Shown: positions 241-24,856 of the stretch, one piece after another
Position numbering within the stretch: the first letter of the stretch is position 1
Layout of the letters: each line of letters opens with the position of its first letter
Assembly (NCBI GenBank): GCA_951406725.2
Contig: OX597818.1
Location: forward strand, 1,984,001-2,048,000
DNA length: 64,000 nucleotides
Direction of reading: 5' to 3'
From: Octopus vulgaris
Lineage: Eukaryota
The notes under the pieces: generated by a model
Databases searched by the model: none
Seen by the model: the letters and a program-made list of their open reading frames with translations, nothing else
What the model was told of the DNA's origin: nothing
Translations under genes and position numbers: made by a program

Positions 241-460
241 GGCAAAAACAGCACGCCGGGCGAAATGCGTAGCCGTATTTCGTATGCCGTTACGTTCTGA
301 GTTCAAATTCCGACGAGGTCGACTTTGCCTTTCATCCTTTCAAGGTCGATAAATTACATACCAGTTACGCACTGGGGGTCGATGTAATCGACTTAATCCG
401 TTTGTCTGTCTTTGTTTGTCCCCTCTATGTTTAGCCCCTTGTGGGTAGTAAAGAAACAGG
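241..460 (+). mobile_element. tRNA-derived SINE, first monomer of a dimeric copy interrupted by the 24-kb TIR element
   Basis: B-box-like GAGTTCAAATTCC plus the GACTTTGCCTTTCATCCTTT..GGTCGATAAA core; collinear with the uninterrupted dimer at 34441-34835. Confidence 0.85.
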
Positions 461-730
461 GGATCTTTGCCTTTTGAAAGCCAGATTTTCCTAGTTAACT
501 AAACAATTTGAAACTTCGTATACTGGTAGATTGTGTCAAATGAAAACATAATAGTAAACCAAAATGAAAACGGAATTGTAATTTTTAAGTTTAACGTTGT
601 TTAAAAATTGGAATTTTAACCAATGATATTCTTTCTTTCGGCCTCATATTATTTACTGCTTCTCAAAATATTGTTACTGTGACGTAAACAGCTATTTTGT
701 GACGTAGCTAACGTATCAAAATGTAAACAT
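461..730 (+). repeat. left TIR (~270 bp)
   Basis: Shares blocks such as TTTGAAACTTCGTATACTGGTAGA and GTGACGTAAACAGCTATTTTGTGACGTA with the reverse complement of 24404-24681. Confidence 0.85.
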
Positions 731-784
731 CCGCTTATCGTTGCTGGTCTGGTTGCGGAGAAGAAGCAATAAGCATTTTCTGAT

Positions 785-1095
785 TTTCATTAAAATTTGT
801 CGAGCTTTTTTGATTTTCTGATTGCATGCAAATGGTTGCAGGCAGCTTTCTGGTTAACTTGAAGTTCTTTTGCCAGTTCTCAAGTGGTTTTATATGGATC
901 TTTCTCAATGACAGTCTCTACATAATGCTCACAATCTGCAAAATCATTTAAACCATTTTCAAGCTGACCTCTCACTGGTCATTTCCCCACCAAATGTTTC
1001 ATTGATATCATGAACAGTTTTAGCTGCTTTACATCTTTTTTTGAAGTTGAATAGCAAAACTGCTCAAATATCACACTTTCACAGTTCCATTTCAG
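785..1095 (-). pseudogene. degenerate mariner transposase N-terminal (HTH) fragment
   Basis: Manual minus-strand translation with stops: ..AVLLFNFKKRCKAAKTVHDINETFGGEMTSERSA*KWFK.. and ..IEKDPYKTT*ELAKELQVNQKAACNHLHAIRKSKKLDK, mariner-like. Confidence 0.65.
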
Positions 1096-1636
1096 ATGAT
1101 TGTAACAATGGGGAAAAAAAATATATAAATGTTAATTTATTGATGCATTTGGGTAAGTTTATATCTGTATTATCAGACAAATGCAAAAAAATGTTTAACA
1201 AAAATTCAAAACCCTGCAAAAATCTGGTACAAATTCTTCATGGTTCAAAACGTTGCTTATTTTTTATTCAACCTGATAATTGATTCGCTGTCTGAGGAAT
1301 TTTTAATAAGAGATATTTTATCATTTTCTCTTACATGTATAATATTCTAACTCCTACTAGCAAATGAAACATGTGCAATGGTGAATAAATAATACTAAAA
1401 ATATTTTCCAGTCTACTGTTTTGATGCGTAATTACTCTGCAAATATTATTTTCCAATATTTTTCTACTCTTATACATGCCTCACACAATTATAACATCTA
1501 CATACAATGTTGGCATACTGGAATATACAGGTGTGCTTCACGAGGACACGGCTTCGATTACAACCCTATCTACATACTATATATGTGTGTATGTATATAT
1601 ATATGCACGCATACATATGTACAAAAAGACTGATAG

Positions 1637-1785
1637 AAGGCACAGGCACATAGTTCCCTTCTTAATCATATGGTTTTGAGTTCAGTCCCAGTGCATGGCA
1701 AATTCGCCAAGTATCACTTATGATAGCCAAGATTGACCAAATCCTTGTGAGTGAATTTGATAGATGGAACCTGTAAGAAACCCAT
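1637..1785 (+). mobile_element. degenerate CORE-type tRNA SINE
   Basis: Similar to the copy at 44009-44172 (CCTTGTGAGTG.ATTTG.TAGA.GGAA.CTG..AGAA.CCC). Confidence 0.6.
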
Positions 1786-2122
1786 CTATATAATATGTGT
1801 GTATATCTGTTTATGTTTGTGCTCTATAAAAGTTGCAAGCTACAAGGTTTGTTGTTGTCATTTCTCTGGTTGACAAATTGTCTGCTTACTTCAAGCCTTT
1901 CAAGGCATGTGTAATTAAGAGATTCCTTATTTAAAACACAGTCAAGTGTTAATGACAGAAAAGGCATCTGGTTGTGAAAGAATACTTCAATCATTTTTTC
2001 ATTTAAAACATACTTGACTCGAAAAACGTGTAAATCAAACAAGACATATTTTAATACATACATGTATTTGATGATATTTATATGTATATATACATATGAT
2101 ATATGTATATATGATTGAAATA

Positions 2123-2175
<53 letters not shown>

Positions 2176-2177
<2 letters not shown>

Positions 2178-2858
2178 TTTTTTTATCTAGTTTCAGCTCA
2201 CAGCTGCAGCCGTGCTGATGCACCACCGTTTTGTGCTACACTGTTATTATGACGAACCTCGTCTAATATGTGGCACTTGGTGAAGAATGGAGTTTGATAT
2301 AGCTACTCTCATTTGCACCTCTTGCTGTGAGGTAGGTTCATCTGGGACTCTTGACAGGAAGATGTCCAGCTTTGATTTAAAAACCGCTACATCTACTTTG
2401 TGCAAGTTCCTCAGACTCTTTGAGAGAATATTAAAAAGCTGTGGGCCTTTGAAACCTAGGCTGTTGCATAAGCTGGTCCTGAAGCGTGATGGCATTGCTG
2501 GGATCTTTGGCACTATGCAGTGTCGTCCCGTTCTAGCATTGGTGTAGCTTACAATGCCAAATTTTGGCACAATTCCTTCCAGGATCTTCCAGACATATAT
2601 TACTGCATATCTCTCCCGTCTTCTCTCCAGGGATTAGAGTCTTAGCTGTTTCAACCTTTCCCAGTAGCTGAGCTGTTGCAAAGGGATGATCTTCTTTGTG
2701 AATCTTCTCTGGATTGCTTCAAGGTCCGCTGTTAATTTTACACTGGTGGGTGACCATAGCTGTGAGCAGTAATCCAGGCGACTGAGGACAAATGTCCGCC
2801 AGAGGACCATCATAGTTTCCTTATCTCTGGTTCTGAATGTTCTTAGGATCCACCCAGC

Positions 2859-2860
<2 letters not shown>
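2176..2860 (-). mobile_element. 5'-truncated CR1-group LINE (RT C-terminus and 3' UTR)
   Basis: GWILRTFRTRD..SRLDYCSQLWSP..LEAIQRRFTK and GPQLFNIL..VPDEPT; homologous to 7699-8713 and 47696-51286; flanked by (TA)n. Confidence 0.85.
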
Positions 2861-2895
<35 letters not shown>

Positions 2896-3887
2896 GAGAC
2901 TTTAATGGGCATGTTGGGCGGGAATCGGGTATCTTCACTGGGGTTCACGGTGGCCATGGTATTGGCACCAGAAATGAGGAGGGAACTAGACTACTGGAAT
3001 TCTGTGATGCATGTAACCTTTTAATCTGCAACACTAACTTCAGGAAGCCTGACTGCCACCATATAACATATCAGTCAGGGGACTCCGCTAGCCAAATAGA
3101 CTTCATCCTCACCAGACAGCGGGAAGCAGGGTCGCTCTTAAATACAAAGACCCTCCCGGGTGAAGAGTGTATCCCTCAGCATAGGCTAATAATTAGTGAC
3201 TTTAGGCTTGAGGCCAGAAGGACTCCAAGAAACAGACCAATCCAGAAAAGAAGGATTTGGAAGCTAAAGAACCCTTCACATGGTCAGAGATTTAGGGATA
3301 TCCTCATCAAGAAATTTAATGAGAGGGAGGAGGAGCTACAGACGTCGGATGTAGAAGGCAGCTGGAAATTCCTACGGGACAGCTTGCTGAGTGCCACAGA
3401 CCAAGTCTGTGGATGGGGTAAAGTTCCTTCCAGACCTAGAGTTACGTGGTGGTGGAATAGTGCAGTAGACAAAGCCATTAGTTCTAAGAAACAGGCCTGG
3501 AGAGCCTGGAGGGATGGGGGTAGCAGGGAACCGTACCAAGTAGCCAAAAGGGAGGCCAGGCGGCAGGTATACATAGCCAAAGATATAGCAGAAAAGAAGA
3601 AGTTTGCCAATGTCCAGCGACGTGAGGACCAAAGAACTGAGGTATTTCGGATTGCTAGACAGTGTGTGAGAGAAAATAGTGATGTTACAGGAGAGAAATG
3701 TGTCCGCATGGATGATGGGGCACTTGCCTTTAATGTTGGTGAAAAGAAAGAGGCTTGGAGAAGCCATTATGAAAGACTGCTGAATGTGGAGAATGAATGG
3801 GAGGAGGAGAGCCTGCCAAATGTTGACCCAGTAGAGGGACCAGCTATCTGAATAGACGGCTCCCTAGTAGATAAAGCAATTAAGGAT

Positions 3888-5396
3888 ATGAAACCGGGTA
3901 AAGCCCCCGGCCCATCAAGAATCACTGCTGAGATGCTTAAAACAGCTGGCTATGTGGGCTATGGCCTAGTCACCCGTATTGTTAACCAGGTAGTTCACAA
4001 TGGAGTCATACCCAATGACTGGCGTAGCAGCACCATAGTCAACTGCTACAAGGGTAAGGGTAAGGGTGATGCTCTAGATAGAAATAACTACAGGGGTATT
4101 AAACTGTTAGATCAGGTGATGAAGACCACAGAGAGGGTCATAACCCATCTCATTAGGGAGAGAATTTGCTTAGATGAGATGCAGTTCGGTTTTGTGCCAG
4201 GTAGAAGCACCACTGATGCTATATTCCTGGTCCGACAACTGCAGGAGAAGTACCTAGCTAAAGATAAACCCCTCTACATAGCTTTTGTGGACTTGGAGAA
4301 AGCCTTTGACAGGGTTCCCCGATTCCTTATCTGGTGGTCGATGCGGAAACTGTTGATTGACGAATGGCTAATAAGGGCTGTACAGGCTCTATACAGAGAG
4401 GCTGTCAGCAAGGTTAGGATTGGCAACGAATATAGTGAAGAATTCCGGGTTGAAGTAGGTGTACACCAGGGCTCGGCCCTCAGTCCCCTTTTATTCATCA
4501 TAGTCCTCCAGGCAATAACAGAGGAATTCAAAACAGGTTGCCCCTGGGAGCTCCTCTATGCTGATGACCTGGCCCTCATAGCAGAATCACTACCGGAACT
4601 AAAAAAGAAATTTTGGGTGTGGAAACAAGGGTTAGAATCTAAGGGCCTTAGAGTAAATGTAGCGAAGACCAAAGTTATAGTATGCAGAAAGGCGAACTCA
4701 GCACACACCCCATCGGGCAGGTGGCCCTGCTCGAGCTGTAGGAAAGGTGTAGGTAGAAACTCCATAAGATGCACCCAGTGTAAGCTATGGACGCATAAGA
4801 GGTGCAGCAACATCAAAGGGAAATTAACTGATAAGATAGCTTTCATGTGCGGCAGATGCACAGGGACAATAGACACCACAGACACTAAAAAAACAGATTC
4901 CATCACACTCCAGGGGGAGAAACTAGAAGTAGTTGATAGTTTCCGCTACCTGGGTGACCAAGTTAGTAGTGGGGGTGGATGCACAGAGAGTGTCACCACT
5001 AGAATACGAATAGCCTGGGCAAAGTTTAGAAAGCTCCTACCCCTACTGGCGACAAAGGGTCTCTCACTCAGAGTGAAAGGTAGATTGTATGATGCATGTG
5101 TGCGAACTGCTATGCTTCACGGCAGTGAAACATGGGCCGTGACTGCAGAGGACATGCGTAGACTTGAAAGAAATGAAGCTAGCATGATCCGCTGGATGTG
5201 CAATGTCAGTGTGAATGCACGACAGAGTGTAAGCACCCTGAGAGAAATGCTAGGCATAAGAAGCATCAGATGCGGTGTGCAAGAGCGACGCTTGCGATGG
5301 TATGGTCATGTACTGCGGATGGATGAGGAGAGATGTGTGAAGAAGTGCCACTCCCGAACAGTTGAAGGAATCAGGGGGAGACATGGGATGAGGTAG
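3888..5396 (+). pseudogene. RTE reverse transcriptase ORF segment with a Cys/His (PHD-like) insertion; separated from the upstream part by a stop at 3849-3851
   Basis: 502-aa ORF in the track with RT motifs and CSSC..CTQC..H..C..CGRC. Confidence 0.85.
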
Positions 5397-5539
5397 TCAA
5401 GCATGACCTCAGAGCGTTGGGCCTCACTGAGGCAATGGCGAAGGACCGAGATCTCTGGAGATGTGCTGTGACTACTAAGACCCGAGATGCTTCCGGCACC
5501 AGTTCCGCATACCCCCTGCCCATCCAAAGCACCTTGGAT

Positions 5540-6890
5540 CCCGGAACATCTCGCTGTGCTTGAGGAGACCTGTTGAGTCAAGTGCATGTACCGGAACATC
5601 TCGCTGGGCTTGAGGAGACCTGTTGAGTCAAGTGCATTTACATGAACATCGAACCAAATATCAATGGAAACAGTAGTTGTGATTCCTGTGCCGGTGACAC
5701 ATAAAGAGCACCATCCGAACATGGCCATTGCCAGTGTAGCCTCCCCTGGCTCCTGTGCCGGTGGCACATAAAAAGCACCATCCGACCGTGACCGATGCCA
5801 ACCCCGCCTCGAATGGCTTCTGTGCCGGTGGCACATGAACATCGAACCAAATATCAATGGAAACATTAGTTGTGAGACCTGTGCCGGTGACACATAAAAA
5901 GCACCATCCGAACGTGGCCGTTGCCAGTGCAGCCTCCACGCCTCGAATGGCTTCTGTGCCGGTGACACATGAACATCGAACCAAATATCAATGGAAACAG
6001 TAGTTGTGATACCTGTGCCGGTGACACATAAAAAGCACCATCCGAACGTGGCCGTTGCCAGTGCAGCCTCCACTGGCTTCTGTGCCGGTGGCACATAAAA
6101 AGCACCAACCGATCGTGGGATCCCGGAACATCTCGCTGGGCTTGAGGAGACCTGTTGAGTCAAGTGCATGTACCGGAACATCTCGCTGGGCTTGAGGAGA
6201 CCTGTTGAGTCAAGTGCATGTACATGAGAATCGAACCAAATATCAATGGAAACAGTAGTAGTTGTGATACCTGTGCCGGTGACACATAAAAAGCACCATC
6301 CGAACGTGGCCGTTGCCAGTGCAGCCTCCACTGGCTTCTGTGCCGGCGGCACATAAAAAGCTCCATCCGAACGTAACCGATGCCAACCCCGCCAGCACCA
6401 TCCGAACGTGGCCGTTGCCAGTGCATCCTCCACTGGCTTCTGTGCCGGTGGCACATAAAAAGCACCAACCGATCGTGGGATCTCGGAACATCTCGCTGTG
6501 CTTGAGGAGACCTGTTGAGTCAAGTGCATGTACATGAACATCGAACCAAATATCAATGGAAACAGTAGTTGTGATACCTGTACCGGTGACACATAAAAAG
6601 CACCATCCGAACGTGGCCAAGCACCATCTGAACGTGGCCGTTGCCAGTGCAGCCTCCACTAGCTTCTGTGCCGGTGGCACATAAAAAGCACCATCCGAAT
6701 GTGACCGATGCCAACCCTGCCTCGAATGGCTTCTGTGCCGGTGGCACATAAAAAGCACCATCCGAACGTGGCCGATGCCAGCACCGCCTTGACTGGCTTC
6801 TGTGCCGGTAGCACATAAAAAAAAAAGCACCAACCGATCGTGGCCGATGCCAGACCCCTCTGGCTCCTGTGCAGGTGGAACGTAAAAAGC
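5540..6890 (+). repeat. modular tandem repeats (~50-65-bp modules) in the RTE 3' UTR
   Basis: Recurring CCGGAACATCTCGCTG.GCTTGAGGAGACC, CATGAACATCGAACCAAATATCAATGG and GTGCCGGTG.CACATAAAAAGCACC modules. Confidence 0.9.
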
Positions 6891-7064
6891 GCCCACTACA
6901 CTCGCGGAGTGGTTGGCGTTAGGAAGGGCATCAAGCTGTAGAAACACTGCCAGATCAGACTGGAGCCTGGAGCAGCCCCTGGCTCCCCAGACCCCGGTCG
7001 AACCGTCCAACCCGTGCTAGCGCGGAAAACGGACGTTAAACGATGATGATGATGATGATGATAA

Positions 7065-7066
<2 letters not shown>

Positions 7067-7121
<55 letters not shown>

Positions 7122-7487
7122 ATATATATATATATGATATGTATATATATATATAATATGTATATAGATATATGATATGTATATATATATATATGATATG
7201 TATATATATGATATGTATATATATATATATGATATGTATATATATATATGATATGTATATATATAAATATGATATGTATATATATATATATGATATATAT
7301 ATATATATGATATGTATATATATATATATGATATGTATATATATATATGATATGTATATATATATATATGATATGTATATATATATGATATGTATATATA
7401 TATATATATATGATATGTATATATATATATATATATGATATGTATATATATATATATGATATGTGTATATATATATATATATATATG

Positions 7488-7525
<38 letters not shown>

Positions 7526-7698
7526 TATATCATATGTATATATATACACATATCATATATATATATATGTATATATATGTATATATATATGATATATATA
7601 TATGTGTCTATATATATATATATATAATATATGTATATATATATATTATATATGTATATATATATATGATATGTATATATATATATATGATATGTATA
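7067..7698. repeat. compound (TA)n/TATGATATG microsatellite
   Basis: Direct reading. Confidence 0.95.
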
Positions 7699-8713
7699 TG
7701 ACCACCCTTGCTAGCTATGCAGATGACACAAAAGTCTCCCATGCAATACAGAACCCTGAAAATATTGCGCATCTGCAACAGGAGTTGGACACAATATACA
7801 GGTGGGCTGAGGACAACAACATGCAGTTTAATGCAAGTAATTTCCAGGCCCTGCGCTACTGGCACACAAAAGTAAACGACGTGCAGACTGGATACACTGG
7901 CCCAGGAAGAATTGCAATCTCTGAGTCAAAATCAGTGCGTGACCTGGGCATTGACATGAGCAATGATGCATCTTTCCAAGTGCATATTGCTAATCTGGTG
8001 ATAAAATGCAGACAGCTAGCTGGATGGATTCTCCGAACTTTCAGAACAAGAGAAAAGAAGACACTGATGGTCCTATGGAGAACATTCGTCCTCAGCCGCT
8101 TGGACTACTGCTCCCAACTGTGGTCACCATACAATATAAAACTAACAGCAGAACTCGAAGCAATTCAGAGAAGCTACACAAAGAAAATCGTCTCAATGCA
8201 AAATATCAGCTACTGGGAAAGACTGAAGGTATTAAACCTCTTCTCCCTAGAGCGGAGGCGGGAGAGATATGCGGTGATATACATCTGGAAAATCCTGGAG
8301 GGTCTTGTCCCAAACTTTGGCATTCAAAGTTACCCCAACCGCAGAACGGGGCGCCACTGCATGGTGCCAAGGATTCCAACATCACCATCAAAATACAGGT
8401 CCAGATACTGCAACAGCTTAGGTTTCAGAGGACCACAGCTCTTTAACATCCTCCCTAAATGCCTGAGAGACTTACATGGTGTGGATGTGGGTTTCTTTAA
8501 AACTAAACTGGATCTCTTCTTGTCGGGAGTCCCAGATGAACCTACCTCGCGACAGGAGACACGGATGCTGGCAGCAGCATCGAACTCCCTTGTTGATCAA
8601 GTGCCACATATCAGAGGTGGATTCACAAATTAGTGTAGCTCATTCAGCGGTGGTGCCCAGCATGGCCGCGGCCTTCGGCTAAAACATTTTTAAGGATTTA
8701 AGGATTTAAGGAT
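7699..8713 (+). mobile_element. 5'-truncated CR1-group LINE, RT C-terminal ORF open, (TTTAAGGA)n tail
   Basis: YADDTKV..VRDLGI..LERRRERY..PDEPT; 3' stem-loop followed by tandem tail; within TA tracts. Confidence 0.9.
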
Positions 8714-8731
8714 ATATATATATATATATAC

Positions 8732-9203
8732 GCGAGAAAGAAGCAACAAGAATGGTTAAGTTTTTAGTACAATCGTTTCATACAAAGACAGGCTTTATTA
8801 AAAGTTGCAAAAATTGCAGCATATAAACGTGTCCCGTACTCATCAGCTAAAATACATGTGAGTTCCCTAGACATCTTAGTGGTTGAGGCTATACTCATGA
8901 AGTAATGTAGATAATTAAGTAACACAAACAGATTTCCAAATTTCATTAAAGTTCTTTAAAGACTGTGCATCATCTTTAAAGAACTTTAATGAAATTTAGA
9001 AATCTGTTTGTGTTACTTAATTATCTACATTACTTCATGAGTATAGCCTCAACCACTAAGATGCCTAGGGAACTCACATGTATTTTAGCTGATGAGTACG
9101 GGACACGTTTATATGCTGCAATTTTTGCAACTTTTAATAAAGCCTGTCTTTGTATGAAACGATTGTACTAAAAACTTATCCATTCTTGTTGCTTCTTTCT
9201 CGC
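8732..9203. repeat. ~230-bp-arm inverted repeat (PLE pLTR-like), each arm with a hammerhead
   Basis: 8732-8962 is the reverse complement of 8973-9203 with few mismatches; near-identical 60-aa pseudo-ORFs on opposite strands in the track. Confidence 0.9.
9083..9173 (+). ncRNA. type-I hammerhead ribozyme with long stem II (mirror copy at 8762-8852, minus strand)
   Basis: TTTTAG-CTGATGA-GTACGGGACA..TGTCTTTGTAT-GAAA-CGATTG-TA-CTAAAA; GUA cleavage triplet. Confidence 0.75.
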
Positions 9204-9454
9204 TTATAATCACCCCACATTACTGTATGGTTAAAACCGTATAGTTTTTTGGTGCATCTAAGTTAGGTACCATATTCAAGTAAATTCATTAAAATTGACT
9301 TGAATCTTTATTGCTTTTTGTATATATATATATATATATATATATGATATGTATATATATATATATGATATGTATATATATATATGATATGTATATATAT
9401 ATATATGATATGTGTATATAAATATATATGATATGTATATATATATATATATAT

Positions 9455-10558
9455 TGTTACGAGGGGGACCTCCGAAAACTGTACGGAATCCCTCAGACAG
9501 GCCCGACTCGATCAGCGAATATTCCCGCCACGGAAACTCGTCGGAGAGAGGAGAGGAGAGACACAACAACAACAACCGCAGCAGCACAGAGAGATACAGA
9601 GGCACAGAGGCAAGGCAACACTGGCTTATATTTAACAACAGTTTATATGACAATCAATGGTTACAACATCAAAGCATTTAAGGCAAACAACAAATCAATA
9701 CATCATACGAGTATACCACAGATCAAAGCATTTAACAACATGCATGTAACAATATATCAGTCCGGAGACACAACAAGTCATATACAGTATTTCAAAGGTA
9801 CACGTCCGAAGACACAGTTCTTTTTCCAAATCACATCAACAGATAACGTTCACAGTTCTTTATAATCTTTTTCTACACATATCAACACAATTCTGAACAT
9901 AAATACCACAACTCGATAATCGACATATCGACAAGTCCTTGACTGTTCTTTTCACTGTTCAATACACCGTGACACGTATCAATACACAATCAAATACCTT
10001 AATTCCTAATTAGAATCGCCAGTGTCCCATTCTGCACTCATCTCTCCGTACCGCTAATTCCAGCTCGCCAGCTCTCGCATCCCAATCGCTTGCTCCTAGA
10101 ATTCCACCGCTTGCTCCCAAGATTCCGTCTGTGTTCTCTGACGACCGACTCCCAACTGCCAAAACCTCACTTCGTCTCTCTCCTTCCCACTGCCCTCTAC
10201 CGCCTATACCCTCTCTATTTGCTCTCTGATTCCCTACTCTATCTCTATCGCCCGCTGCCTATCACCCTCTCATGACAGCTCTACCATACTCTCTGCCTGT
10301 CCTTCTCTGCCCCCCTCGTCCTCTCTCACTGCTAATTCTTCCTCACATCTGTCCCTTAGCCTTATACTCTATCTCTCTCACTACTTTTCTTCCTCTTCTT
10401 CAAGGGATGTCTAGAACGACCCCTAATCGACCGCACAATGCCAGAAAGGTCCCATTAATCTCCCATTAAACAAAGGACTGTCACTTTTTACTCCAGGCCT
10501 GCCGGCGCCATTATTCCAAGGTGGGTCACCAATACTGCACTAGCCAAAATCCATAACA
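9455..10558. mobile_element. probable solo LTR (~1.1 kb)
   Basis: TGTTA...TAACA termini, ATAT on both flanks within a TA tract, no coding remnant. Confidence 0.6.
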
Positions 10559-10567
10559 ATATATATG

Positions 10568-10632
<65 letters not shown>

Positions 10633-10697
10633 TATATGATATGTATATATATACACATATCATATATATATATATACATATCACATATATATATATA

Positions 10698-10731
<34 letters not shown>

Positions 10732-10911
10732 CATATATATACATATATATATATATGATATGTGTATATATATACATATCATATATGATATATATATATA
10801 TATATATACATATCATATATATATATATACATATCATATATATATATACATATCATATATATATATATATATATACATATCATATATATATATATACATA
10901 TCATATATATA

Positions 10912-10977
10912 TCCTTAAATCCTTAAAAATGTTTTAGCCCGAAGGCCGCGGCCATGCTGGGGCACGACCGCTGAATG
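10912..10977 (-). mobile_element. very short CR1-group 3' tail copy
   Basis: Reverse complement matches 8641-8713 (CAGCATGGCCGCGGCCTTCGG..CATTTTTAAGGATTTAAGG). Confidence 0.8.
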
Positions 10978-11063
10978 TATATATATATATATATCATATA
11001 TATATGTATATGATACATATATATATATATATGATAATATATCATATATTTATATGCAATATG

Positions 11064-11144
<81 letters not shown>

Positions 11145-11164
11145 GATATGTATATATATAGATA

Positions 11165-11670: not shown

Positions 11671-11797
11671 TTTCTGTGCCAGTGGCACATAAAAAGACTG
11701 GAGCCTGGAGCAGCCCCTGGCTCCCCAGACCCCGGTCGAACCGTCCAACCCATGCTAGCACGGAAAACGGACGTTAAACGATGATGATGATGATGAT
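11671..11797 (+). mobile_element. RTE 3'-tail fragment
   Basis: Matches 6955-7060, with (GAT)n tail. Confidence 0.8.
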
Positions 11798-11959: not shown

Positions 11960-12018
<59 letters not shown>

Positions 12019-13770: not shown

Positions 13771-14022
13771 TACACGCACACATACACCCACAGGTGTGTG
13801 TATATATATGTGTGTATGTATGGCAGTAACAACATTGGCAGCATTAGTAACAACATAAAGAAGTGCTTTGCTGGTAACATATGCAGGGGCAGTAACATTA
13901 CCGATGCAACCACCACTAACACCAGCAGCCCTTGCTTTGACATAGCAACAGCAGCAGCAGTTACAACTACATCAATAGCAGCTACAGTGGCATGAACAAC
14001 AATAATAGGTACAACACCGACA

Positions 14023-14600
14023 TTGCAAGTCTACAGAAATATATTTGTTGGACCAGAAATTCATTTTCCCAACCATGGATCCTTCAAAGTCCTGGAAAGG
14101 AGATACATAACATCGCTGGCCAGCCACATATGGCAACTAGAAGACGACAGAGTTCCACACTCCATCTTATGGAAAATCCTCAAAAACTCAGACCTCTACA
14201 TAAATGGGATGAAACGCTGCAAGCTATGCATAGCTGAATGCATGAGAATCCTAAGGGACTCATTCGAACCAGGGGCTATACTTAACTCCAGAATGGAGAT
14301 TCTTGGGCCATGCTTGCACTTTAGGAGATTTCTACTGGCCTTTTGGGAACTGCTAGAAGGTGATAGCTAACAGGAGAGGGAGATAATCCCCTATTATTTA
14401 CCCTCAGCTGAATGATGGCATTATGGTTGGAAGCTATTGGCGAAAGGAGATAATTCAGACTTTCCCTTCCATATTTTAAAGAGGTCATAGGTCATCGGGT
14501 TTTGGAGTCTGACGATATACCATAAAATTAAACCCTTTATGGATAGGAAACCCAGGATAACCCCATAAATCGGCCTTCACCAGGAAAAATATAGACCACT
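14023..14600 (+). mobile_element. PLE fragment: GIY-YIG C-terminus and downstream decayed hammerhead
   Basis: TSLASHIWQL..WKILK..RCKLCIAE..LNSRME..CLH; CTGACGA..GAAACCCAGGATA at 14509-14559. Confidence 0.7.
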
Positions 14601-14654
14601 CTACTTCTTAGAGTGTGCTTTGCTGGATTTATGTTTTTCTAAAAACGATATATA

Positions 14655-15062
14655 TACCTCCTCCAGGCATTTAATGTAAGCCTCTGTGTTCAGTCTGAGA
14701 CCATGTGGGAATATGAATGGAAGCATAACATTGCCATTGCTAATGATCACTCCAAACACCATGATGTTGGCTGGATGTTTGATTTTTATCACTCTCGGTA
14801 CATATTTTGGGGACATGGCAAGTCAGTGATTCTGTGCATTCACCATCTGTTTTTATTGGAGCGTCCGGCACGAATGCCAACCAGTAAGGCATCTCATTTC
14901 CAAATTTCTGGCAGAGTAAATTGTGTCATGGTACTGTTTTTCGCACAGATGGTGCTCAACTGACCCTACTATACTGTGTAATTAACAAAATCAAAGACAA
15001 ACAATGCACATGTGTAAAATTAAAACTATGAAATGGTGACAATTTACCCATCACACCCTGTA
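14655..15062 (-). mobile_element. Tc1/mariner-superfamily relic with one TIR
   Basis: KHPANIMVFGVI..PFIFPHGLRLNTEAYIKCLEEV; terminus TA-CAGGGTGTGATGGGTAAATTGTCACC on the minus strand. Confidence 0.7.
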
Positions 15063-15378
15063 TATATGCTGAAAAAATGATTAAATGCAAGTTTGTTTTC
15101 TCCATACATTTTAGTTGTGGTTATTTTCAAATTTTTAGCCTTTGCACTAAATGTTCCAAGTGCAGTTGGTTACTGAACACCACAGTATATCATCAAGACA
15201 ACACTTTATTGCATTATTTTATATATGTTCAGTAACACTACTAAGTATAGTAGTAACCACACCACTTTACTGGAAGCAGATTGGATGCTGATATTCTGCA
15301 TGGAGTTTGAAACTCAACAGTAGCAGTTGTGCATCTAACTGTACACACAATATATACATATGTGCATGTGTGTGTGTG

Positions 15379-15413
<35 letters not shown>

Positions 15414-16007
15414 AGAATTTACAAAAACACAACAGACGAACTCAGGTGGTGTAGACAACAGATGTATTAGTTTAATGCTCGGGAAGTGAAAAAGTCTTTA
15501 ATATTTAGTCTTTCCACAGAAAGAAACGGAGAGAAAATACAGTGTAGTGGCTAGCGATCTATCATGGTGAATGCCGGACAAAGGGGTCACACAGGAGAGC
15601 TAGGAAGAAGGTAAGATAATAAAGTAGTGGTGATCCCAAAATGAAGGTGCACGTGCGTGTGTATATGAGAGCATATATGGGTGTGTGGATGATGGTGTGG
15701 GTGCTGGGAAGTAGTCAGTGCTAGTGTGTGCATGGTGGTGTGGTGTGGAGGGACAGGTGAGAGTGGGGAAAGCAAGGGTGGGTTGTGGGTTAGGCTGATA
15801 TATATATATGTAGGCAAGTAAAAATCAAAAATAGGAAAAACAACAAAATTCAAAAGGATGTACACAGCGAATATATGAGATTGATGCTCAGAGAAAGTAA
15901 GATGAAAAAAAGATGGGGGTGTGACATTTCAAGCATGGTTCTTTGTCAGAAAGGAAAGCGTAAAATGACTGGAGAGAAGGAAAAGGATAGTCCGAGAAAA
16001 GCATACA

Positions 16008-16406
16008 TCTTTATATATAAAAGTGAGGTTGTGTGCTGTCTGTCTCCTATGATTTAGATTCCTAACTACTCCCACATTTTGCAGTGCAGTTTAACCGAAA
16101 CCGGGTATCTTATAGTCGTGATTCATATCGAGCCCTTCTGGGTATAAGCGCGCGTCTACGATGAGGCTACGATTTAAAAAAAAAATTAACTTCAATTATT
16201 CCCATTTTTAATGCATTTTTTGCATATATAAGGGAAGTAACTCTCTAAAAATTTATTATTAAATCTCAGAACGTAAAAAGCTACAGTAACACCCCCCCCC
16301 CTTTGTGGTTAGCCATATTGAGATGGCTATTATACTTTACATCTCTAAAAATGCTTATATAGTTATTTCCCTTACAAACCCGAGCAACGCCGGGCGATAC
16401 TGCTAG
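16008..16406 (+). mobile_element. non-autonomous Helitron
   Basis: A|TC..CTAG|T junctions and subterminal GC hairpin CCCGAGCAACGCCGGG. Confidence 0.8.
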
Positions 16407-17054
16407 TATATATATATATATATATATATATGCATGTATAATTATTTTCTTGTTAATTAATGATTCCTATTAATATAAATATTCCCCCATTACATGTCTT
16501 AAAAAAGAAACAAAAATCTCAATGTTTTGGGCGAATGATTCAACCATTATGAAACCAAAGATTTTTTACTGTTGTCTCTGAAGGCAGCTGTGCACCTCAC
16601 CAACCCACCCATCCCACTTTACATGACACATTCACTTGCATTCTTTTATTTATTCTGATCTCCCACCCAAAGAATATTCATCCTAATAATTTCCATGACT
16701 TTTGTTTCGGGTGAACTTCTATTTAGAAGGAAATTCCATTTATGCATGTATGCATACATTTACACCGAGAAAAATCATTTAACATTGTCTTTACATTTGG
16801 ATGTTTATCATTAAAAAATGTTTTGAAACCTAGAATTGCTTCTTCTTTTATTAATTTCAGTCAGTGTGCTATGACCATGCTCAGGCACTGTCTTTGGGTG
16901 TCTTTCATTGACCCTATCAATATTAGAGGTAATTTCAAACATAGGGCAGGGTCCCATTTTAACGATGCCTGTTCATTGAAAGTAACCTTTGATAGCCTAG
17001 TATACTAGAGCAGTAAACATGTAAATGAACACACACACATACACACAAACACAC

Positions 17055-17210
17055 CTTGCGGGCTTCTTCATAGAATCATTCTCCCAATTTGACTCACATG
17101 ACATTGATCAACCTAAGACTACAGTAAAAGACACTTACCCAATATACCACACAGCAGAATTGAACCCAAAAACCCATGGGTGTGAAGCAAATTTTTCAAC
17201 CACAAAGCTA
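17055..17210 (-). mobile_element. degenerate CORE-type SINE
   Basis: Weak collinearity with 44009-44172. Confidence 0.5.
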
Positions 17211-17494
17211 TCCTTTATATATATTTTTATCAAAATTCTTTTGTTTAAAAGAAAAAGATCAAAGCCTTTTAATTTTTTCTTCTTTATTATGAAAATGTCC
17301 TGTGTAAGTTATCTGGTGTTAATATTGACTGGGGTTGGAAGTTTCTGGTACAAGAAAATTAAAGGGGATGAGTTCAGTTATGAATATTATCTTTGTCACA
17401 TATTCTAATGGAACTTGTAAATTAGAACATGTTTCATGTACTAACAAAATTTGTAAATAATTTCAATATTCATTTCATCCAGTATTGTTTAAAG

Positions 17495-19080
17495 CAGTGA
17501 TTCCCAATGTGGTCCCTGGAACCTACCAGTGGTCCCCCAGAGAATTCGTAGCCGTAAAAAATTGAAGCCATTTCAGATCTACACAATATTGTTCGATAAT
17601 AAAGACACTGTTAGTTAATAATAATTTATATGAAGACAGAATAATAATAAGAAAACAAAATTCAATAATTATTCCATAAGAATCAATAATGTATAATATA
17701 TAATCAATGATATATTACAATCAAGAACTACATAATTTAAATTTTATAATCACAACAGTTTCATAATAAATTCGATATTTTTAATAGATCACTACATAAT
17801 ATTGTTTAATAATAAATTTGATACTTTAAATTTATAGAAATAAAATATTTATTATTTTTATTTTTTTTATGATCAGTTGTAATAATATCTGAACCAACTG
17901 CTAAAAAGGCAAAACTGAAGAAATGCAAAGAAGATTTTATCGTGTTTGGTTTTGTATCTGTAGACTCAAAACCTATGTATCTTGAATGTAATGCCATCAT
18001 GACAAATTATTTCATGAAGAAAGTTAAGCTGGAGCAGCACCAGAAATTAAGGCATCCATCATTTGTTGGTAAAGGTCGGGAATATTTTGAGAATAAAAAG
18101 AAAATACAGCTAATCAAACTACCTGACTTTGTAAAGAAGATAAATATTGAAAAAGTAAAGATACTCAAACCAAGTTATTTGGTTTCTGAAATTATTGCCA
18201 AGGTTGCAGCACCTCAGATTTAAGGTGAGAATCTTGTCAAGCCTGCTATGATAGCTTGTGCAAATGAGGTTCTGGGAAAAGATGCTGAACCTACTCTGAG
18301 TACAATTCCACTTTCAAATAACACAATTACAAGAAGACAGGATGAAATGTCTAATTTTGTTGAGGAGAAAGAAGATTGTGGAAATTCTCCAAACGACCAA
18401 TTTTTCTATCCAGGTTGATGATAGCACAATTCATAAACAAGTTATCCTTCAGATTCAACCATGAAGATGATATAAGGGAAGAAATGTTATTCATTAAAAG
18501 TTTTTTTTGAAACAACTAATGGAGAAGATATATTCAATGAAGTAATGCAGTATTTTAATGATAAAAATATTCCATCGACTAATTTGATCAACACTGCATC
18601 AGATGGAGCTGCAGCCATGACTGGAAAAGTGAAAGGCTATGTTTCTAGAATGAAATCAGTTGCTCCTCACATTTTTAATATACGTTGTATTATCTACAGA
18701 CAGCATGTGGTTGCTAAGAATATTGGAGGACACATGGAAAATGCATTCAACACTTCCATACATACAAATAACATTGTCAAATCAAACTCTGTGAATAATA
18801 GATTTTTTATGCAATTCTGTGAAGATGAAGATTTTAAAACCCTATTGCTTCACACACTAAGATGGGTCAAAAGGCATGAGCCTTGAAAGACTAGTGAATT
18901 TGTGGGAGCCATTAATCCACTTTTTCATGTTCAAGAGTCAGATGACTCATTACAACTCCAAGACAAACTGATACAGCTAAGAAAATTTTGGAAAGACTTT
19001 CTGAGTTTAAAATAAATATTATACTTGAGTGATATTTTTAAAACAGTGAATCTGCTTAACTGCAAGGTAGAAAATCAGAT
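17495..19080 (+). mobile_element. degenerate hAT (Buster/Charlie-like) DNA transposon
   Basis: CAGTGATTCCCAA terminus; fragments KPMYLECNAIM..KLEQHQKLRH, IPLSNNTITRR, SDGAAAMTGK..CIIYRQH. Confidence 0.8.
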
Positions 19081-19114
19081 TTGGTCACCTGTATACTGCT
19101 AGTATACATATATA

Positions 19115-19592: not shown

Positions 19593-21856
19593 TCATCGTC
19601 GTTGTCGTCGTCGTCGTCGTCATCATCATCATCGATTAACGTCCGTTTTCCATGATGGCATGGGTTGGACAGTTTGACTGAAGTCTTGGAGAGCCAGCTG
19701 CTGCAACAGGCTCCAATCTAGTCTAGCATAATTTCTACATCTAAATGCCCTTCCTAACGCCAACTATTCTGAGAGTGTAGTGGGTGTTCTTTATGTCTCA
19801 TCAGCACAGGAGCCAGCTAGAGGGTCACTGGCCCCCAGCTACGGTATTGGTTTTACTTGACTCAAGCATACTGCAAGCTTACGCATGTCCTCGGCATTCA
19901 TGGCCCATGTTTCACTACCGTATAGCATGGCAGTTCACACACATGCATCATACAGTTCACCTTTCCCCCTGAGTGAGGGGCATTTAGCTGCCAGCAGAGG
20001 TAGGAGCTCCCTGAATTTGCCCAGGCTATTATTACTCTAGTTGCTACACTCGCAGAGCAATCACTCCCACTACATACTTGGTCGCCTAGGTAGTAGAAAG
20101 TATTTACTACTTCTAGTTTCTTCCCCAGGCATGTAATGGAAGCTGTTTTCTGAACACCTTCAGTGTTTATTGCCCCACTGCATCTGCCACACACAAGAAA
20201 TAATTTTCCCAGTTAACCTTCCTTTGATATTGCTGCACCTTTTATGTGTCCATAGCTTACACCAGGTGCATCGTATGGAGTTTCTACCAATGCCTTTTCT
20301 ACAGAGGAGTTTGTGATTTGACAGCCTACACACTAACTAAAACTTTGGTTTTGGCTAGGTTAACCCTAAGGCCATTCAATTCTAGACTTTGCTTCCACGC
20401 CCTAACCTTTGGCTCCAGTTCCGGCAGTGACTCTGCTATTAGTGCAAGGTCATCAGCATAGAGGAGCAGCCTGTCTTGAATTTCTCTGTTATTGCCTGGA
20501 GGACTATAATGAATAAGAGAGGGCTGAGGACTGATCTTAGGTTGACCCTTACCCCTACCCAATATTCTTCACTGTACTCGTTGCCAACCATCACCTTACT
20601 GTACATGGCTTGTACAGCTCTCAAACATTCATCCATCCCTAGTCTCCTCATTGACCACCAGATAGGGGATCGGAGGACCCTGTCAATGAAAGCCAGGTAC
20701 AGAGTTTTATCTTGGACTAGCTATTTCTCCTGCATCTGTCTTATCAGAAATATAGCATCAGTGGTGCTTTCCCCTGGCACGAACCGAAACTGCATCTCAT
20801 CTAGACTGCCTCTCTCCCTAATTACTTGGGCTATGACCCTCTCCGTGACCTTCATTACCTGATCCAACAACTTGATACCTCTGTAATTATTTGTATCTAA
20901 TGCGTCACCTTTACCTTTGTTAGCAGTTGACTATGGTGCTGCTACACCAGTCATTGGGTATGACTCCTTCATGTATCACCTGGTTGACTAGGCTATAGCC
21001 GACACCGCTAGATAGTTTGAGCATCTCTGTGGTGATTCCTGATTGTCCGGGGGCTTTCCCTATCTTCATACCCTTAATTGCTTTACCTACCAAGGCACTG
21101 TCAATTTAGATAGATAGCTGGTCCCTCTGTTGGGCCGGCATTCGGCAGACTCTCTTTCTCACATTCATTCACTTTATTTAGCAAACTTTCATAATGGCGT
21201 CTCCAAACCTGTCTCTTTGCAGCAAGTGAACCGTCACCCATGAGGACACATTTCTCTCCTAGGATATCGCGATTCTCTCTCACACACTGTCTGGCAACAG
21301 GAAAATACTTCAAGTCTTTGGTCATCACGGCACAGAACATTGGCAAATTTTTCCTTATCTGCTTCCCCTCTGGCCAAATAAACCTATCTCCTAGCTTCCC
21401 TTTCGGCAGTCTGATACAATTCCCTGCAATCACCGGTCTTCCAGTCCTTCAAAGCCTGTTTCTTTTCCTTACTAGCCCTGTCAACAACATTGTTCCACCA
21501 CCACGTTACCTTGGGTTGAGAGGAGACTTTGCACCATCCACAGATCTGGTCACTAGCCCTCAAAAGGTTGTCCTGTAGAAAACTCCAGTTGTCTTCCACA
21601 GCTTTGAGTAATATGTCTCTCAATCTCTTTTTGCAGAATCCTTAAGCTTCCAGACCCTTCTCCTCCATTCTGGTCATCTTCTGGGCATCCATTTAGCCCT
21701 GATCCTGAAGTAGCTAACTACTAATCTATATTGTGGGGTACATTCTTCACCTGGGAAGGTTTGGGCATTTACAAGTAGTCGTCTTTCCTGTTTCCTAGTG
21801 AGGATGTAGTCAATTTGACTAGTGTGTCTACCAGATTGGTGGGTGACTAAATGGCC
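19593..21856 (-). mobile_element. older degenerate RTE LINE copy (same family as 2896-7066)
   Basis: Frameshifted fragments TWWWNNVVD, LLYADDLALIAESLPEL, MCGRCSGAI; (GAT/GAC)n tail at 19593-19633. Confidence 0.88.
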
Positions 21857-23459
21857 CTGAATATGCTAATTGATTACCATTTAGTAATTATGATACTTCT
21901 ACAATTGAAGATAATTTTAATAAATAATGAATTTATGTATTATGGCATTTGATACTTGTCAATTGTCTACATTGTTCACATAAATGCCAGTACCAGGCAG
22001 AGGTGGTTTCTAGCAGTAAGAGAAGCTTAAGAATAAATAAATGGAAATTTGTCGGCAGAACAAAGTTAGTAACCCCTTACACTCTCAGTGTTGTGATGAG
22101 AGCCAAGGTACCCTCTTGTGAGGAATGGACTGAACCGAGAGAGTGTATATAGTTTGTGTTATTTCATAGTGAAGTTCGAGAGTGTGGGTTGGTTTGTTCA
22201 TTTGGAATATTTGTTGGTTCTTGAGAAATAGTTATGTTGTTATTGCTGCTGCATTATCTTATTTTATCACACTGGTACCACATATTTCAGGCCATTATCG
22301 CAATAGTGGTGGTACTACTATATTGGATACAAACCATGTTACAGCATCTGGCGACAAAAGGCTCGAAGATCACGTAGCATGTAATTCACCTGCAAACTAA
22401 GCATTAAATTCTTTCTTACCAGATTGTCAGTCTTCTGAAATTCCCTTGTCCATGTTATTTCCTCTGCAGCCATCCACACATTTTATTCAAGATCAACTAC
22501 GTCAATCTTACCAGTTTTGAAGGCACAGCTCTTGTCTCAGAAGGAATGCAAAAGGCAAGGATACAGCCCCCTTTATCCAGCCAAATTGTTCAAATAAAAC
22601 ATGGGAAAAAAAACCCTAACACCCACTACTATTCCTGTGAATTAGTAAGCTGTAAACTATATCAAAACTGAGCCCAAATCATCATCTTTAACATGTCTCA
22701 CAGCTAGAACCCTTTTACTAAATATTTTAGCCAATCATTTATCTCCAGAATGGCAGCTTCTACATGGAATCACATTCTCATCAGACATTAATTTACACAA
22801 GTTGAAAAAAGACATCATCTACATTCACATTAACAGTTTAGGAAAGCCTGTAGATGTTCTCTTGCTCGCACTTTATATTAATACAAATAAGAATTTCTTA
22901 GAAAGGTACATAGCCAAAAATTTTATAGGAGGAAATAATGTCAACTATATTGACCCACTCCTTATCTAGTGTTTTATTTCATTGACCACAGAAACAGAGA
23001 AATGTGAAGTGTGTTGACAATGCTAACTAAATTCTGATAGGTAAACTGTTTCATTAAATCTCTAGTGCCAGTTTAGCATACAGTAAACGTGGCCATTTAC
23101 AATTTAGTATGCTATCTGTTGCCAATTCTAGACCATAGCTCTAACCCTAACATAAACCATAACAAGGCATGCACACAATGTAAACAAAAACAGAAACAAA
23201 ACCAAATAAAGAGTAAATCAATTTTAATGCAGGATATTACAATTTGTGATGCAAATGCAAAGTACACAAGAATTATGCAACAGGTGTGTAATACATTTGA
23301 AAGTAGGGTACATAGATGCAAGCAGGATATTACAGTTTGTGATGCAAGATCCTATATGGATCTTTTAGAAAAGATCCCACTACCTGTTTTCAGCGTAACA
23401 AAAATCCTAATCCTAAACCCTAACCCCAAACACTAGGTGTACGTATTCTTTACTTTCAC

Positions 23460-23493
<34 letters not shown>

Positions 23494-24403
23494 TCCGTAA
23501 ACATAAATCCGAAAAAAGAAGCCCACTCTAAGTTATAGAATGGTATATATTAAAGTTAGATAAGGCCAATTTATGGGATTGCCTTGGGTTTCACGCCCGT
23601 TCCCTACAAATATATAACATACTCGAGATGTTTTCAGGTTTACATATATATGTTTATTAAGTTCAAAATATACCAGTTACAGGTGGGTCGATAAAACGAG
23701 TACAAGTTGAGCTGGAAATCTACAGCAACAGGCATTGGCCTATGCCAGAAGAATAATGAACCAATGTTAATATAATTACGGTGCTACTGCAGTGCACTCA
23801 ATTATCCTGTTTGTTTACAAAGCAAATGATTCGGATGTGCACGAGTAAAATTTTATCAAAGTAAATGATACGAGTCCACGTGTGTAAAATATTAAGAACA
23901 TGTGGATACATGCGAAGAAAATAAAACAATATTCAAATCAGTTTAGTTATTTCGTGTTGCATATACGTTCATAATTACCAATAACTGTCATGTTCCCAGA
24001 CAATTCTTAAGAACAAAATAAAAACTTTGATATATAGTGTCAGTTATGAGGGGACGATGTCATTTGCCCGCTTGTTTCAGCCTGGCTTTTTTTGTCTATG
24101 TCATGAAGGAGGGTTGCGTGGGTGAATGATATCGTATACCAATATCAAAGGATTTCTGTTATTACTCGAATTGTTATTATGATTTTAGGATTGCAGCTGA
24201 AAATTGAACGTGGGTTCCCAAACGGTGCGTTACCACATATTGAAGTTTCGTAAGATATAGAGGTGTGGCGAAAATATAAAAATTTTATTTTGTAAATGAA
24301 AATTACAAACTGAAATTCTAAATATACAATGCTTCATTTATTTAGTAAAGATCTCAATATCTAATAATTTGCTATAGTATAAAAGGCTTACTTGTTACCC
24401 ACA

Positions 24404-24681
24404 TTGTTTACAATTTTCAAACGAACGTTAAGTACGTCACAAAATAGCTGTTTACGTCACAGTAACATTATGCAGTTACTGATTTCAAATGAAAACAGAC
24501 AATACGATTGGTTAAAATTCGCAGATTTAAACTATGTTTAAACTTATAAAATACATTTTTGTCAAAAAAACTACTTGAAATTATTGTTTTCTTTTGACAC
24601 ATTCTACCAGTATACGAAGTTTCAAATTATTTAGTTAACTAGAAAAATCTTTAAAATCTGGCTTTCAAAAAGAAAAGATCC
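24404..24681 (-). repeat. right TIR of the 24-kb element
   Basis: Reverse complement of 461-730. Confidence 0.85.
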
Positions 24682-24856
24682 GAAACAGGTATTTCGCCTG
24701 CCGCAACGTTCTGAGTTCAAATTCCGCCGAGGTCGACTTTGCCTTTCATTCTTTCGGGGTCGATTAAATAAGTACCAGTTACGTACTGGGGTCGATATAA
24801 TCGATTTAATCCGTTTGTCTGTCCTTGTGTGTCCCCTTGTGGGCAATAAAGAAATA
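24682..24856 (+). mobile_element. second monomer of the interrupted SINE
   Basis: GAAACAGG|TATTTCG..GAGTTCAAATTCCGCCGAGGTCGAC continues the 241-460 copy as in the 34441 dimer. Confidence 0.85.

What the first reader, a model, noticed from the sequence alone, without database searches (positions are those of the whole stretch)
453..24689. A 24.2-kb TIR-bounded element with a perfect 8-bp TSD splits a SINE: giant Merlin-like or cargo-carrying transposon
Seen: ~270-bp imperfect inverted repeats at 461-730 and 24404-24681 both start GGATCTTT, and GAAACAGG is duplicated on both sides. Joining the flanks rebuilds the junction AAGAAA(C/T)AGGTATTTCG found in the intact dimeric SINE at 34441-34835, so everything between is one insertion. 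Known: GG termini with 8-9-bp TSDs are typical of Merlin (IS1016/ISXO2-like); hAT and P elements usually start CA or TA. Inference: even after removing nested LINEs, PLEs and Helitrons, several kb of unassigned DNA remain (e.g. 1300-2060, 16410-17490, 21860-24400) with no visible transposase, which suggests a Pack-like element carrying captured DNA. Several internal relics look more decayed than the host SINE, which would fit transport as cargo.
Basis: partly seen in the sequence, partly recalled or inferred. Interest (0 to 1): 0.75.

Follow-up and report, generated by a model that had tools for sequence, protein, structure and literature searches.

The report
Giant Merlin transposons carrying other transposons
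This 24-kb insert is one of at least 56 oversized relatives of a Merlin jumping gene; it has no jumping enzyme of its own and was likely moved by enzyme from related copies, it carries other jumping genes as passengers, and no host gene was found in the parts checked.

Summary
Observation confirmed: ~270-bp TIRs, an exact 8-bp TSD and a split SINE. The element belongs to a family of large non-autonomous Merlin elements. At least 55 other loci share its cargo junctions. Of 31 copies with both ends located, 16 have their own perfect 8-bp TSD (7.8-27.9 kb), so copies moved whole. Merlin identity is shown: a broken IS1595/Merlin transposase sits 500 bp inside a TIR 95% identical to the window's right TIR, and the 'unassigned' 21858-23253 is Merlin's own 3' sequence. 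The cargo is mostly other transposons added in layers and then copied as DNA: mariner, hAT-like, a LINE already dead before amplification, and, in relatives, a LINE with up to 993 open codons. No host exon or donor locus was found, so Pack-type capture is unproven. The window copy has a unique left junction and 8.2 kb of private later insertions. Two relatives moved using a nested small element's end. TIR tips diverge about tenfold faster than the cargo yet match between the two ends of a copy.

The parts
241..460 (+). 5' half of the host dimeric SINE (not part of the element)
   Evidence: 89% to intact SINE 34452-34672; maps to positions 11-232 of it
453..460 (.). Left 8-bp TSD GAAACAGG
461..731 (+). 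Left TIR (GGATCTTT...), the 3'-side end of the parental Merlin
   Evidence: 95-97% to the best 39 other loci of 1284 candidates; best among large copies 95%
732..744 (+). Ten bases of subterminal sequence plus a junction unique in the genome, where 6-10 kb of the family's left arm is missing
   Evidence: 24-mer across it has 1 match at <=1 mismatch; alignments
745..1280 (-). 5' half of a dead mariner passenger, cut by the left junction
   Evidence: its continuation in other copies hits Pfam Transposase_1, E 1.4e-18
1330..2131 (.). Shared core DNA, not assigned
   Evidence: 92-95% in most large copies; junction with mariner in 33 regions
2149..2895 (-). 3' fragment of a young LINE that inserted into one sub-lineage and was then carried
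   Evidence: 96-97% to 39 other loci, mostly outside the family; same junction in 4 other copies
2896..11128 (.). Private block, read as later insertions into (TA)n: RT/PHD LINE 2898-7060, LINE 7700-8730, 236-bp-arm palindrome 8727-9208, TGT...ACA segment 9455-10558 (solo-LTR label recalled)
11129..16406 (.). Cargo shared with a subset of copies: SINE, dispersed repeat 12940-13630, mariner-like and PLE-like remnants (labels recalled, no Pfam hit)
16407..17496 (.). Shared core DNA, not assigned
17497..19092 (+). 5' part of a hAT-like DNA transposon, 3'-truncated (superfamily label from its TIR and 8-bp TSD; no Pfam hit)
   Evidence: free copies 87-91% identical, one complete with TSD CTTTAAAC; 78% aa; junction in 33 regions
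19620..21857 (-). Dead RT LINE passenger, broken before the family amplified
   Evidence: RVT_1 hits; 9 stop positions shared by 17-19 of 19 copies that differ by 2.5%
21858..23253 (-). Merlin's own internal sequence 3' of the transposase
   Evidence: 75-84% to a 3.4-kb TIR-bounded, transposase-bearing Merlin at G000:C18:48.99 Mb
23229..23491 (.). 114-bp repeat unit, expanded to a >5-kb array behind the transposase at G000:C18:64.46 Mb
24425..24681 (-). Right TIR, the 5' (transposase-proximal) end of the parental Merlin
   Evidence: 95% over 245 bp to the TIR 500 bp upstream of a PF12762 transposase
24682..24689 (.). Right 8-bp TSD GAAACAGG
24682..24856 (+). 3' half of the host SINE

Best explanation
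The insert is a copy of a large non-autonomous Merlin DNA transposon family whose 8-28 kb members moved as whole units, likely cut and pasted by transposase made from related copies, and which carries other transposons as passengers. Shown: Merlin ends and Merlin internal sequence; own TSDs on 16 of 31 copies; passengers at the same junction in 4 to 44 copies. Inferred history: a roughly 3.4-kb Merlin (5' TIR, transposase, repeat, 3' region, 3' TIR) gained a large insert in its 3' region and lost its transposase; further LINEs, SINEs and DNA transposons landed in it at different times and each was multiplied by later jumps; internal deletions gave both shorter large copies and the abundant 1.1-1.7 kb elements. 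Ends are exchangeable: two copies moved with the outer end of a nested small element. The window copy lost 6-10 kb of left arm (deletion or end replacement), sits in a SINE, and later took 8.2 kb of private insertions. Whether the oldest core was captured in one step or built up piece by piece is open.
For: Transposase link: (TIR 95%, PF12762 53.7 bits, 3 stops); C32 keeps residues 152-198 in its right arm and C14:71.38 Mb has shared sequence next to the transposase; old 3.4-kb Merlin. Whole-unit moves: 16 of 31 perfect TSDs, 1 of 928 control pairs; core p-distance 2.3% over 27 copies on 23 contigs. Layered passengers: junctions in 44, 33, 33, 16 and 4 regions; free copies of the passengers at 87-97%; shared stops. 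Small elements are deletion derivatives. Composite moves: G000:C3:51.1 Mb and C3:119.76 Mb share an inner junction and have different perfect TSDs.
Against: 14 of 31 large copies with both ends have no TSD match, so recombination and rearrangement also shaped the family. No intact closely related transposase was found among 40 scored of 541 candidates, so the helper is not identified. The window's left junction is single-copy, so this exact structure is not shown to have jumped. About 2 kb of core in the window and about 2.5 kb of the left arm of other copies have no free relatives in the 1.8 Mb fetched and could be captured host DNA. Loci were chosen by similarity to the window, so the sample is biased to close copies.
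Confidence: 0.8

Rival explanations
1. Pack-type capture: the oldest core (left-arm block, mariner, 1330-2131, 16407-17496, hAT-like piece, dead LINE) was copied in one step from an ordinary host locus by gap repair or template switching, and may include intron or regulatory DNA; only the younger passengers were added later.
For: The core pieces keep one order in most copies; the LINE was dead and the hAT-like element truncated before amplification; 17220-17488 has no relatives outside the family among 40 scored of 87 candidates; 10 of 52 marker hits cluster at C4:93-99.5 Mb, a possible birthplace.
Against: No TIR-free donor was recognised among the loci fetched; the most divergent copy (C14:34.59 Mb, 5.6%) is truncated inside the hAT-like piece and starts at a breakpoint shared with TIR-bearing copies. 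No credible host-gene Pfam hit in the element ORFs among 40 and 31 scanned. Younger passengers plainly arrived one by one.
Confidence: 0.3
2. For this copy only: a 1.2-1.7 kb small element first inserted in the SINE and made the TSD; its interior was later replaced in place by DNA copied from a large family member, so the 16-kb unit never jumped.
For: The left TIR is closer to small elements (95-97%) than to most large copies (80-95%); the outer right TIR carries small-type variants; the junction is unique; single-copy Pack-TIRs arise this way (PMC8277862, section 8 read).
Against: The same ten subterminal bases follow the left TIR in large copies that are sisters of the window in the core tree, so a simple internal deletion explains the junction; TIR variants are exchanged freely in the family; 16 kb is a long repair tract (judgement).
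Confidence: 0.25
3. The two TIR sequences are independent MITEs or the region is a segmental duplication bounded by chance.
For: TIR-like ends are very abundant (1284 and 1534 candidates).
Against: Neither end has an inner partner TIR or own TSD in the window; the SINE halves join at the TSD; the interior is found between the same ends at many loci with different TSDs.
Confidence: 0.02
4. The element belongs to Mutator or hAT rather than Merlin.
For: Long G-starting TIRs and 8-9 bp TSDs also fit Mutator; 8-bp TSDs fit hAT (recalled).
Against: The transposase found inside these TIRs, in several loci, is PF12762.
Confidence: 0.03

Closest known systems
Merlin (IS1016/IS1595-related) DNA transposons (PMC8101967; passages and supplement look-ups read)
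   Same: 5'-GG ends, TIR within 24-462 bp, 8- or 9-bp TSD, imperfect TIRs, internal tandem repeats, DDE_Tnp_IS1595 transposase in relatives; Merlin is abundant in an octopus (191 sequences).
   Different: Size 8-28 kb with stacked passengers; no cargo-carrying Merlin in the passages read. From memory only: some Merlins were said to exceed 10 kb (Feschotte 2004 not held).
Pack-TIRs / Pack-MULEs (PMC8277862; abstract and sections 7-9 read)
   Same: Non-autonomous TIR element with foreign interior, multiplied with distinct TSDs.
   Different: There, 4 of 370 were multicopy, most are hAT or mariner, the worked example is 291 bp, and the word Merlin does not occur. Here there are at least 56 loci, 5-25 kb interiors, the cargo is mostly other transposons, and no parental locus was found.
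Macrotransposons and composite insertions of maize Ac/Ds (PMC4270019; passages read)
   Same: Ends of two different elements move the DNA between them as one unit with an 8-bp TSD; inverted duplications next to ends.
   Different: Here seen as fixed, repeated copies in an animal genome, with a nested small element giving one end.
Giant eukaryotic transposons (review PMC6431247; passages read) and TE hitchhiking on fungal Starships (PMC13004909; search listing only)
   Same: Over 20 kb; other transposons ride along.
   Different: The review does not mention Merlin and notes that natural cut-and-paste cargo is usually small; Starships use a tyrosine recombinase and carry genes.

Membership tests
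Merlin, non-autonomous derivative | TIRs begin 5'-GG | tested here: met
Merlin, non-autonomous derivative | TIR length 24-462 bp | tested here: met
   about 255-270 bp; range from PMC8101967
Merlin, non-autonomous derivative | 8- or 9-bp TSD | tested here: met
   window 8 bp; 16 of 31 large copies perfect 8 bp; 7 of 13 small copies perfect 8 bp, 2 of 13 perfect 9 bp
Merlin, non-autonomous derivative | Shares ends and internal sequence with an element coding a DDE_Tnp_IS1595 transposase | tested here: met
   TIR 95%, PF12762 over cut-off, D/D/E blocks visible in the translation; internal 75-84%; L162 ORF over cut-off
Merlin, autonomous | Own transposase ORF between the TIRs | tested here: not met
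   tblastn of the relative's transposase finds nothing in the window
Merlin, currently active family | Intact closely related helper transposase in the genome | tested here: inconclusive
   40 of 541 candidates scored, 25 read: close ones are broken; the longest open relative (356 aa) is 63% identical and has no such TIR nearby
Pack-TIR (PMC8277862) | Internal non-TE sequence with a parental copy at a host locus | tested here: inconclusive
   no donor or host exon found; about 2 kb unassigned; searches score only 40 candidates
Pack-TIR (PMC8277862) | Multicopy form: same interior, distinct TSDs, distant loci | tested here: met
Macrotransposon / composite transposition | Outer ends from two different elements flanked by one TSD | tested here: met
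   two relatives on C3, same inner junction, different perfect TSDs; not shown for the window copy
Mutator (MULE) | MULE transposase inside related TIRs | not tested
   no PF10551 search was run

The most novel reading that the evidence does not exclude
Merlin here works as a freight system for other transposons: non-autonomous carriers above 20 kb repeatedly copy whole retrotransposons, including a LINE with a 993-codon open endonuclease-RT frame, to new chromosomes without an RNA step, recruit new ends from nested small elements, and their two TIR tips are rewritten in step with each other by the transposition or repair reaction itself, which would be a sequence record of how Merlin ends pair, a mechanism not yet studied biochemically as far as I recall.
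Probability: 0.3. Interest if true: 0.72.

Novelty: new variant of a known kind. Interest (0 to 1): 0.52.

Why it matters
It shows that a little-studied cut-and-paste superfamily moves 17-28 kb loads repeatedly in an animal, well above the usual natural cargo, and that young-looking LINE, SINE, mariner and hAT copies can be DNA-level passengers, which distorts repeat-age landscapes and 'active LINE' counts. It gives a natural series for how non-autonomous elements grow, shrink and swap ends. The impact on the host looks small: roughly 0.8 Mb in 2.8 Gb (estimate) and no captured gene found.

Tried and rejected
Chimera between a separate small family and the large family: first favoured, weakened when small elements proved to be deletion derivatives and large sister copies showed the same subterminal bases. 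The 24-mer used as a cargo marker (52 hits) turned out to lie in Merlin's own 3' region and also hits two old cargo-free Merlins, so it is not a clean cargo count; junction counts replace it. 2190-2860 as an ancient relic: rejected, it has many 96-97% free copies. The 30 best PF12762 loci mostly belong to other Merlin families with GGCAC ends. Empty-site test with public contigs: swamped by SINE and TIR copies, no piece spans the junction; summed depth at 749-782 is 38-58 times that at 1-34 in four runs, in line with about 50 copies but not a copy number. Whether the unique left junction occurs in other individuals is untested. No RNA run was found, so expression is untested. An 8-mer shared between the left flank of C1:207 Mb and the right flank of C1:9.5 Mb could not be tied to a rearrangement. 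Atlas look-up of the hAT-like protein gave no result. Literature: searches found no large or cargo-carrying Merlin; Repbase, Dfam, subscription papers, and the supplement and deposited library of PMC13282606 were not seen and may hold this family.
Full report
Observation. The ends, the TSD and the split SINE are as described. GAAACAGG flanks both ends, both ends read GGATCTTT, and the TIRs align at 74.7% over about 260 bp. The two SINE halves map to an intact dimeric SINE with an overlap of exactly the eight duplicated bases. The genome is a 2.8-Gb animal genome; earlier scan notes call it octopus (not checked here).

The ends are common. The left and right TIRs gave 1284 and 1534 first-look candidates, 40 scored each, at 92-97%. 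Of 20 such loci read, 13 held both ends within 1.07-1.68 kb; 7 of these 13 have a perfect 8-bp TSD, 2 a perfect 9-bp TSD, 2 one mismatch, 2 no good match. Their interiors match the arms of large copies, so they are deletion derivatives.

The interior is also a family. I fetched these and later hits and compared them in scripts. Diagnostic junctions of the window's interior occur in 44, 33 and 33 regions, 55 different loci together, on 23 contigs (69 regions examined, which include five free hAT-like loci, cargo-free Merlins, and three duplicates that were dropped). Both outer ends were located in 31 cargo-bearing copies: 16 have a perfect 8-bp TSD (7.8 to 27.9 kb; ten of them 17-22 kb), 1 has one mismatch, 14 have none; among 928 non-cognate pairs 1 matches at <=1 mismatch. 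The shared core differs by 2.3% on average over 27 copies, down to 0.1%. With the octopus rate of 0.0036 per million years used in PMC13282606 this would be about 3 million years, with some copies much younger (inference). In the window, 15,353 of 24,221 bp are collinear with other copies and 8,233 bp (2896-11128) are private; the piece tested is a young LINE with 39 free copies at 96-97%.

It is Merlin. A genome search with PF12762 found 150 scored matches, one of them 700 bp from a right-TIR hit. At G000:C18:64.46 Mb a TIR 95% identical to the window's right TIR is followed after 500 bp by a Merlin transposase with three stops and visible D, D and E blocks, then by an array of a 114-bp unit also present at 23229-23491. 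One large copy keeps transposase residues 152-198 in its right arm, and two other loci join family sequence to this transposase. An older 3.4-kb TIR-bounded Merlin at C18:48.99 Mb carries a 75-84% match to window 21858-23253 directly 3' of its transposase, so that tract is Merlin's own. The window has no transposase remnant. No intact close helper was found: 40 of 541 candidates scored, 25 read, the close ones broken. Terminal GG, TIR length and 8-9 bp TSD match the definition in PMC8101967 (passages read).

The cargo is mostly other transposons, added in layers. Shared by most copies: a mariner (Pfam Transposase_1), the 5' part of a hAT-like element whose free copies are 87-91% identical (no Pfam hit), and an RT LINE with nine stop positions shared by 17-19 of 19 copies that differ by 2.5% (some shared stops reflect shared frameshifts). 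That LINE was therefore dead before it was multiplied, which confirms transport as cargo. Shared by sub-lineages: a young LINE fragment at 2149-2895 (4 other copies; free copies 96-97%) and, in the left arm that the window lacks, one LINE nested in another at the same junction in 16 copies at 97-100%, with open frames up to 993 codons in one copy. Against a host-gene cargo: the element ORFs among 40 and 31 scanned gave only RT hits or weak sub-threshold hits. About 2 kb of core in the window has no free relatives in 1.8 Mb of fetched DNA, and 17220-17488 hits only family loci among 40 scored of 87 candidates. No TIR-free donor was recognised; a few loci had no TIR within the fetched range, and the most divergent of them looks like a truncated copy. 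Capture of the oldest core remains possible.

Ends are exchangeable. At C3:51.1 Mb and C3:119.76 Mb a whole small element forms the left end of a cargo-bearing unit; both share the same inner junction and have different perfect TSDs, so the composite jumped at least twice. Other copies have the same arm at both ends, and one is an inverted duplication that includes its flank. In 22 of 22 copies aligned, the mariner runs on where the window's left TIR joins it, and the window's junction is unique. Deletion in a large copy and replacement by a small element's end both fit; filling of a small element in place is the rival for this copy.

TIR tips behave oddly. Over 21 copies the first 200 bp differ by 11% (left) and 19% (right; one rearranged end included) against about 2% in the core; among ten related copies the excess stops at the inner TIR edge. 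At positions 11-24, which differ by 29% between copies, the left and right ends of the same copy match better than shuffled pairs: 42 mismatches against 69 +/- 6 for 17 copies, and 39 against 52.8 +/- 4.7 (P = 0.005) after collapsing a young clade to 12. Copies are related, so this P is generous. Conversion between the two ends, or swapping both ends with one small-element subfamily, would explain it; concerted TIR evolution in Galileo and S elements is recalled, not checked.

Comparison. Works like a multicopy Pack-TIR or a macrotransposon; is a non-autonomous Merlin. PMC8277862 (abstract, sections 7-9) found 4 multicopy cases among 370 animal Pack-TIRs and does not mention Merlin. The giant-transposon review PMC6431247 (passages) has no Merlin and treats large natural cut-and-paste cargo as unusual. 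An octopus repeat annotation, PMC13282606 (parts 1-2 of 3 read), lists two recently active Merlin families with 11 insertions and 28,998 bp, and no large Merlin; its supplement and library were not seen. PMC4270019 (passages) describes two-element composite insertions in maize. PMC2874221 only names Merlin. Nine searches found no cargo-carrying Merlin; that some Merlins exceed 10 kb is recalled. Earlier scan notes do not cover this family.

Verdict. Real, well supported and more than one odd insertion: a new variant of a known kind. It would interest transposon specialists for its size, copy number, passengers and end dynamics. It carries no host gene as far as tested and its helper looks lost.

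Noticed in passing
TIR positions 11-24 of 17 large copies (regions from L047-L155, L221-L222): Tips differ by 29% between copies whose cores differ by 2%, yet left and right tips of one copy match each other more than shuffled pairs.
   Followed up: partly
G000:C4:93.1-99.5 Mb (L055, L067-L071, L080-L084, L138-L140, L190, L213-L217): 10 of 52 marker hits, about 8 elements, cluster in 6.4 Mb, including the copy with the fullest interior and one with a transposase; possible birthplace or local hopping.
   Followed up: partly
L074/L103 (G000:C32, left arm): Passenger LINE keeps a 993-codon open endonuclease-RT frame; the same insertion is in 16 copies.
   Followed up: partly
L188/L265 (G000:C13:23.06 Mb): 11-kb element whose left flank is the reverse complement of its right flank, with the same arm at both ends: inverted duplication typical of aberrant transposition.
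   Followed up: no
L148/L056 (G000:C26:14.0 Mb): A 17.45-kb copy sits inside a small GGATC element 40 bp from its right end; both have perfect 8-bp TSDs.
   Followed up: no
L145 (C1:207.2 Mb) and L282 (C1:9.5 Mb): Two TSD-less copies on one chromosome share the same 8-mer at opposite ends; could mark an inversion or be chance.
   Followed up: partly
L137:4845-10000 (G000:C18:64.46 Mb): 114-bp unit expanded to over 5 kb inside a Merlin, open in several frames; a Merlin-borne proto-satellite.
   Followed up: no
window 29603-33242: Long near-perfect palindrome: nested arms of 615, 415, 195 and 172 bp at 97-100% around a 730-bp centre; recent fold-back or assembly artefact.
   Followed up: no
window 38571-43230: Ty3/Gypsy-type RT, RNase H and integrase ORFs bounded by 337-bp inverted, not direct, repeats at 96%.
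   Followed up: no
window 57448-61600: Eight 480-bp tandem units at 100% identity with an inverted copy at 57448-57906.
   Followed up: no
window 53461-55800: 780-aa RT plus GIY-YIG ORF, a Penelope-like element.
   Followed up: no
L118-L135: Other Merlin families with GGCAC ends, 8-bp TSDs and 305-320 aa open frames coexist in the genome; one is nested in a GGATCTAG-ended element.
   Followed up: no
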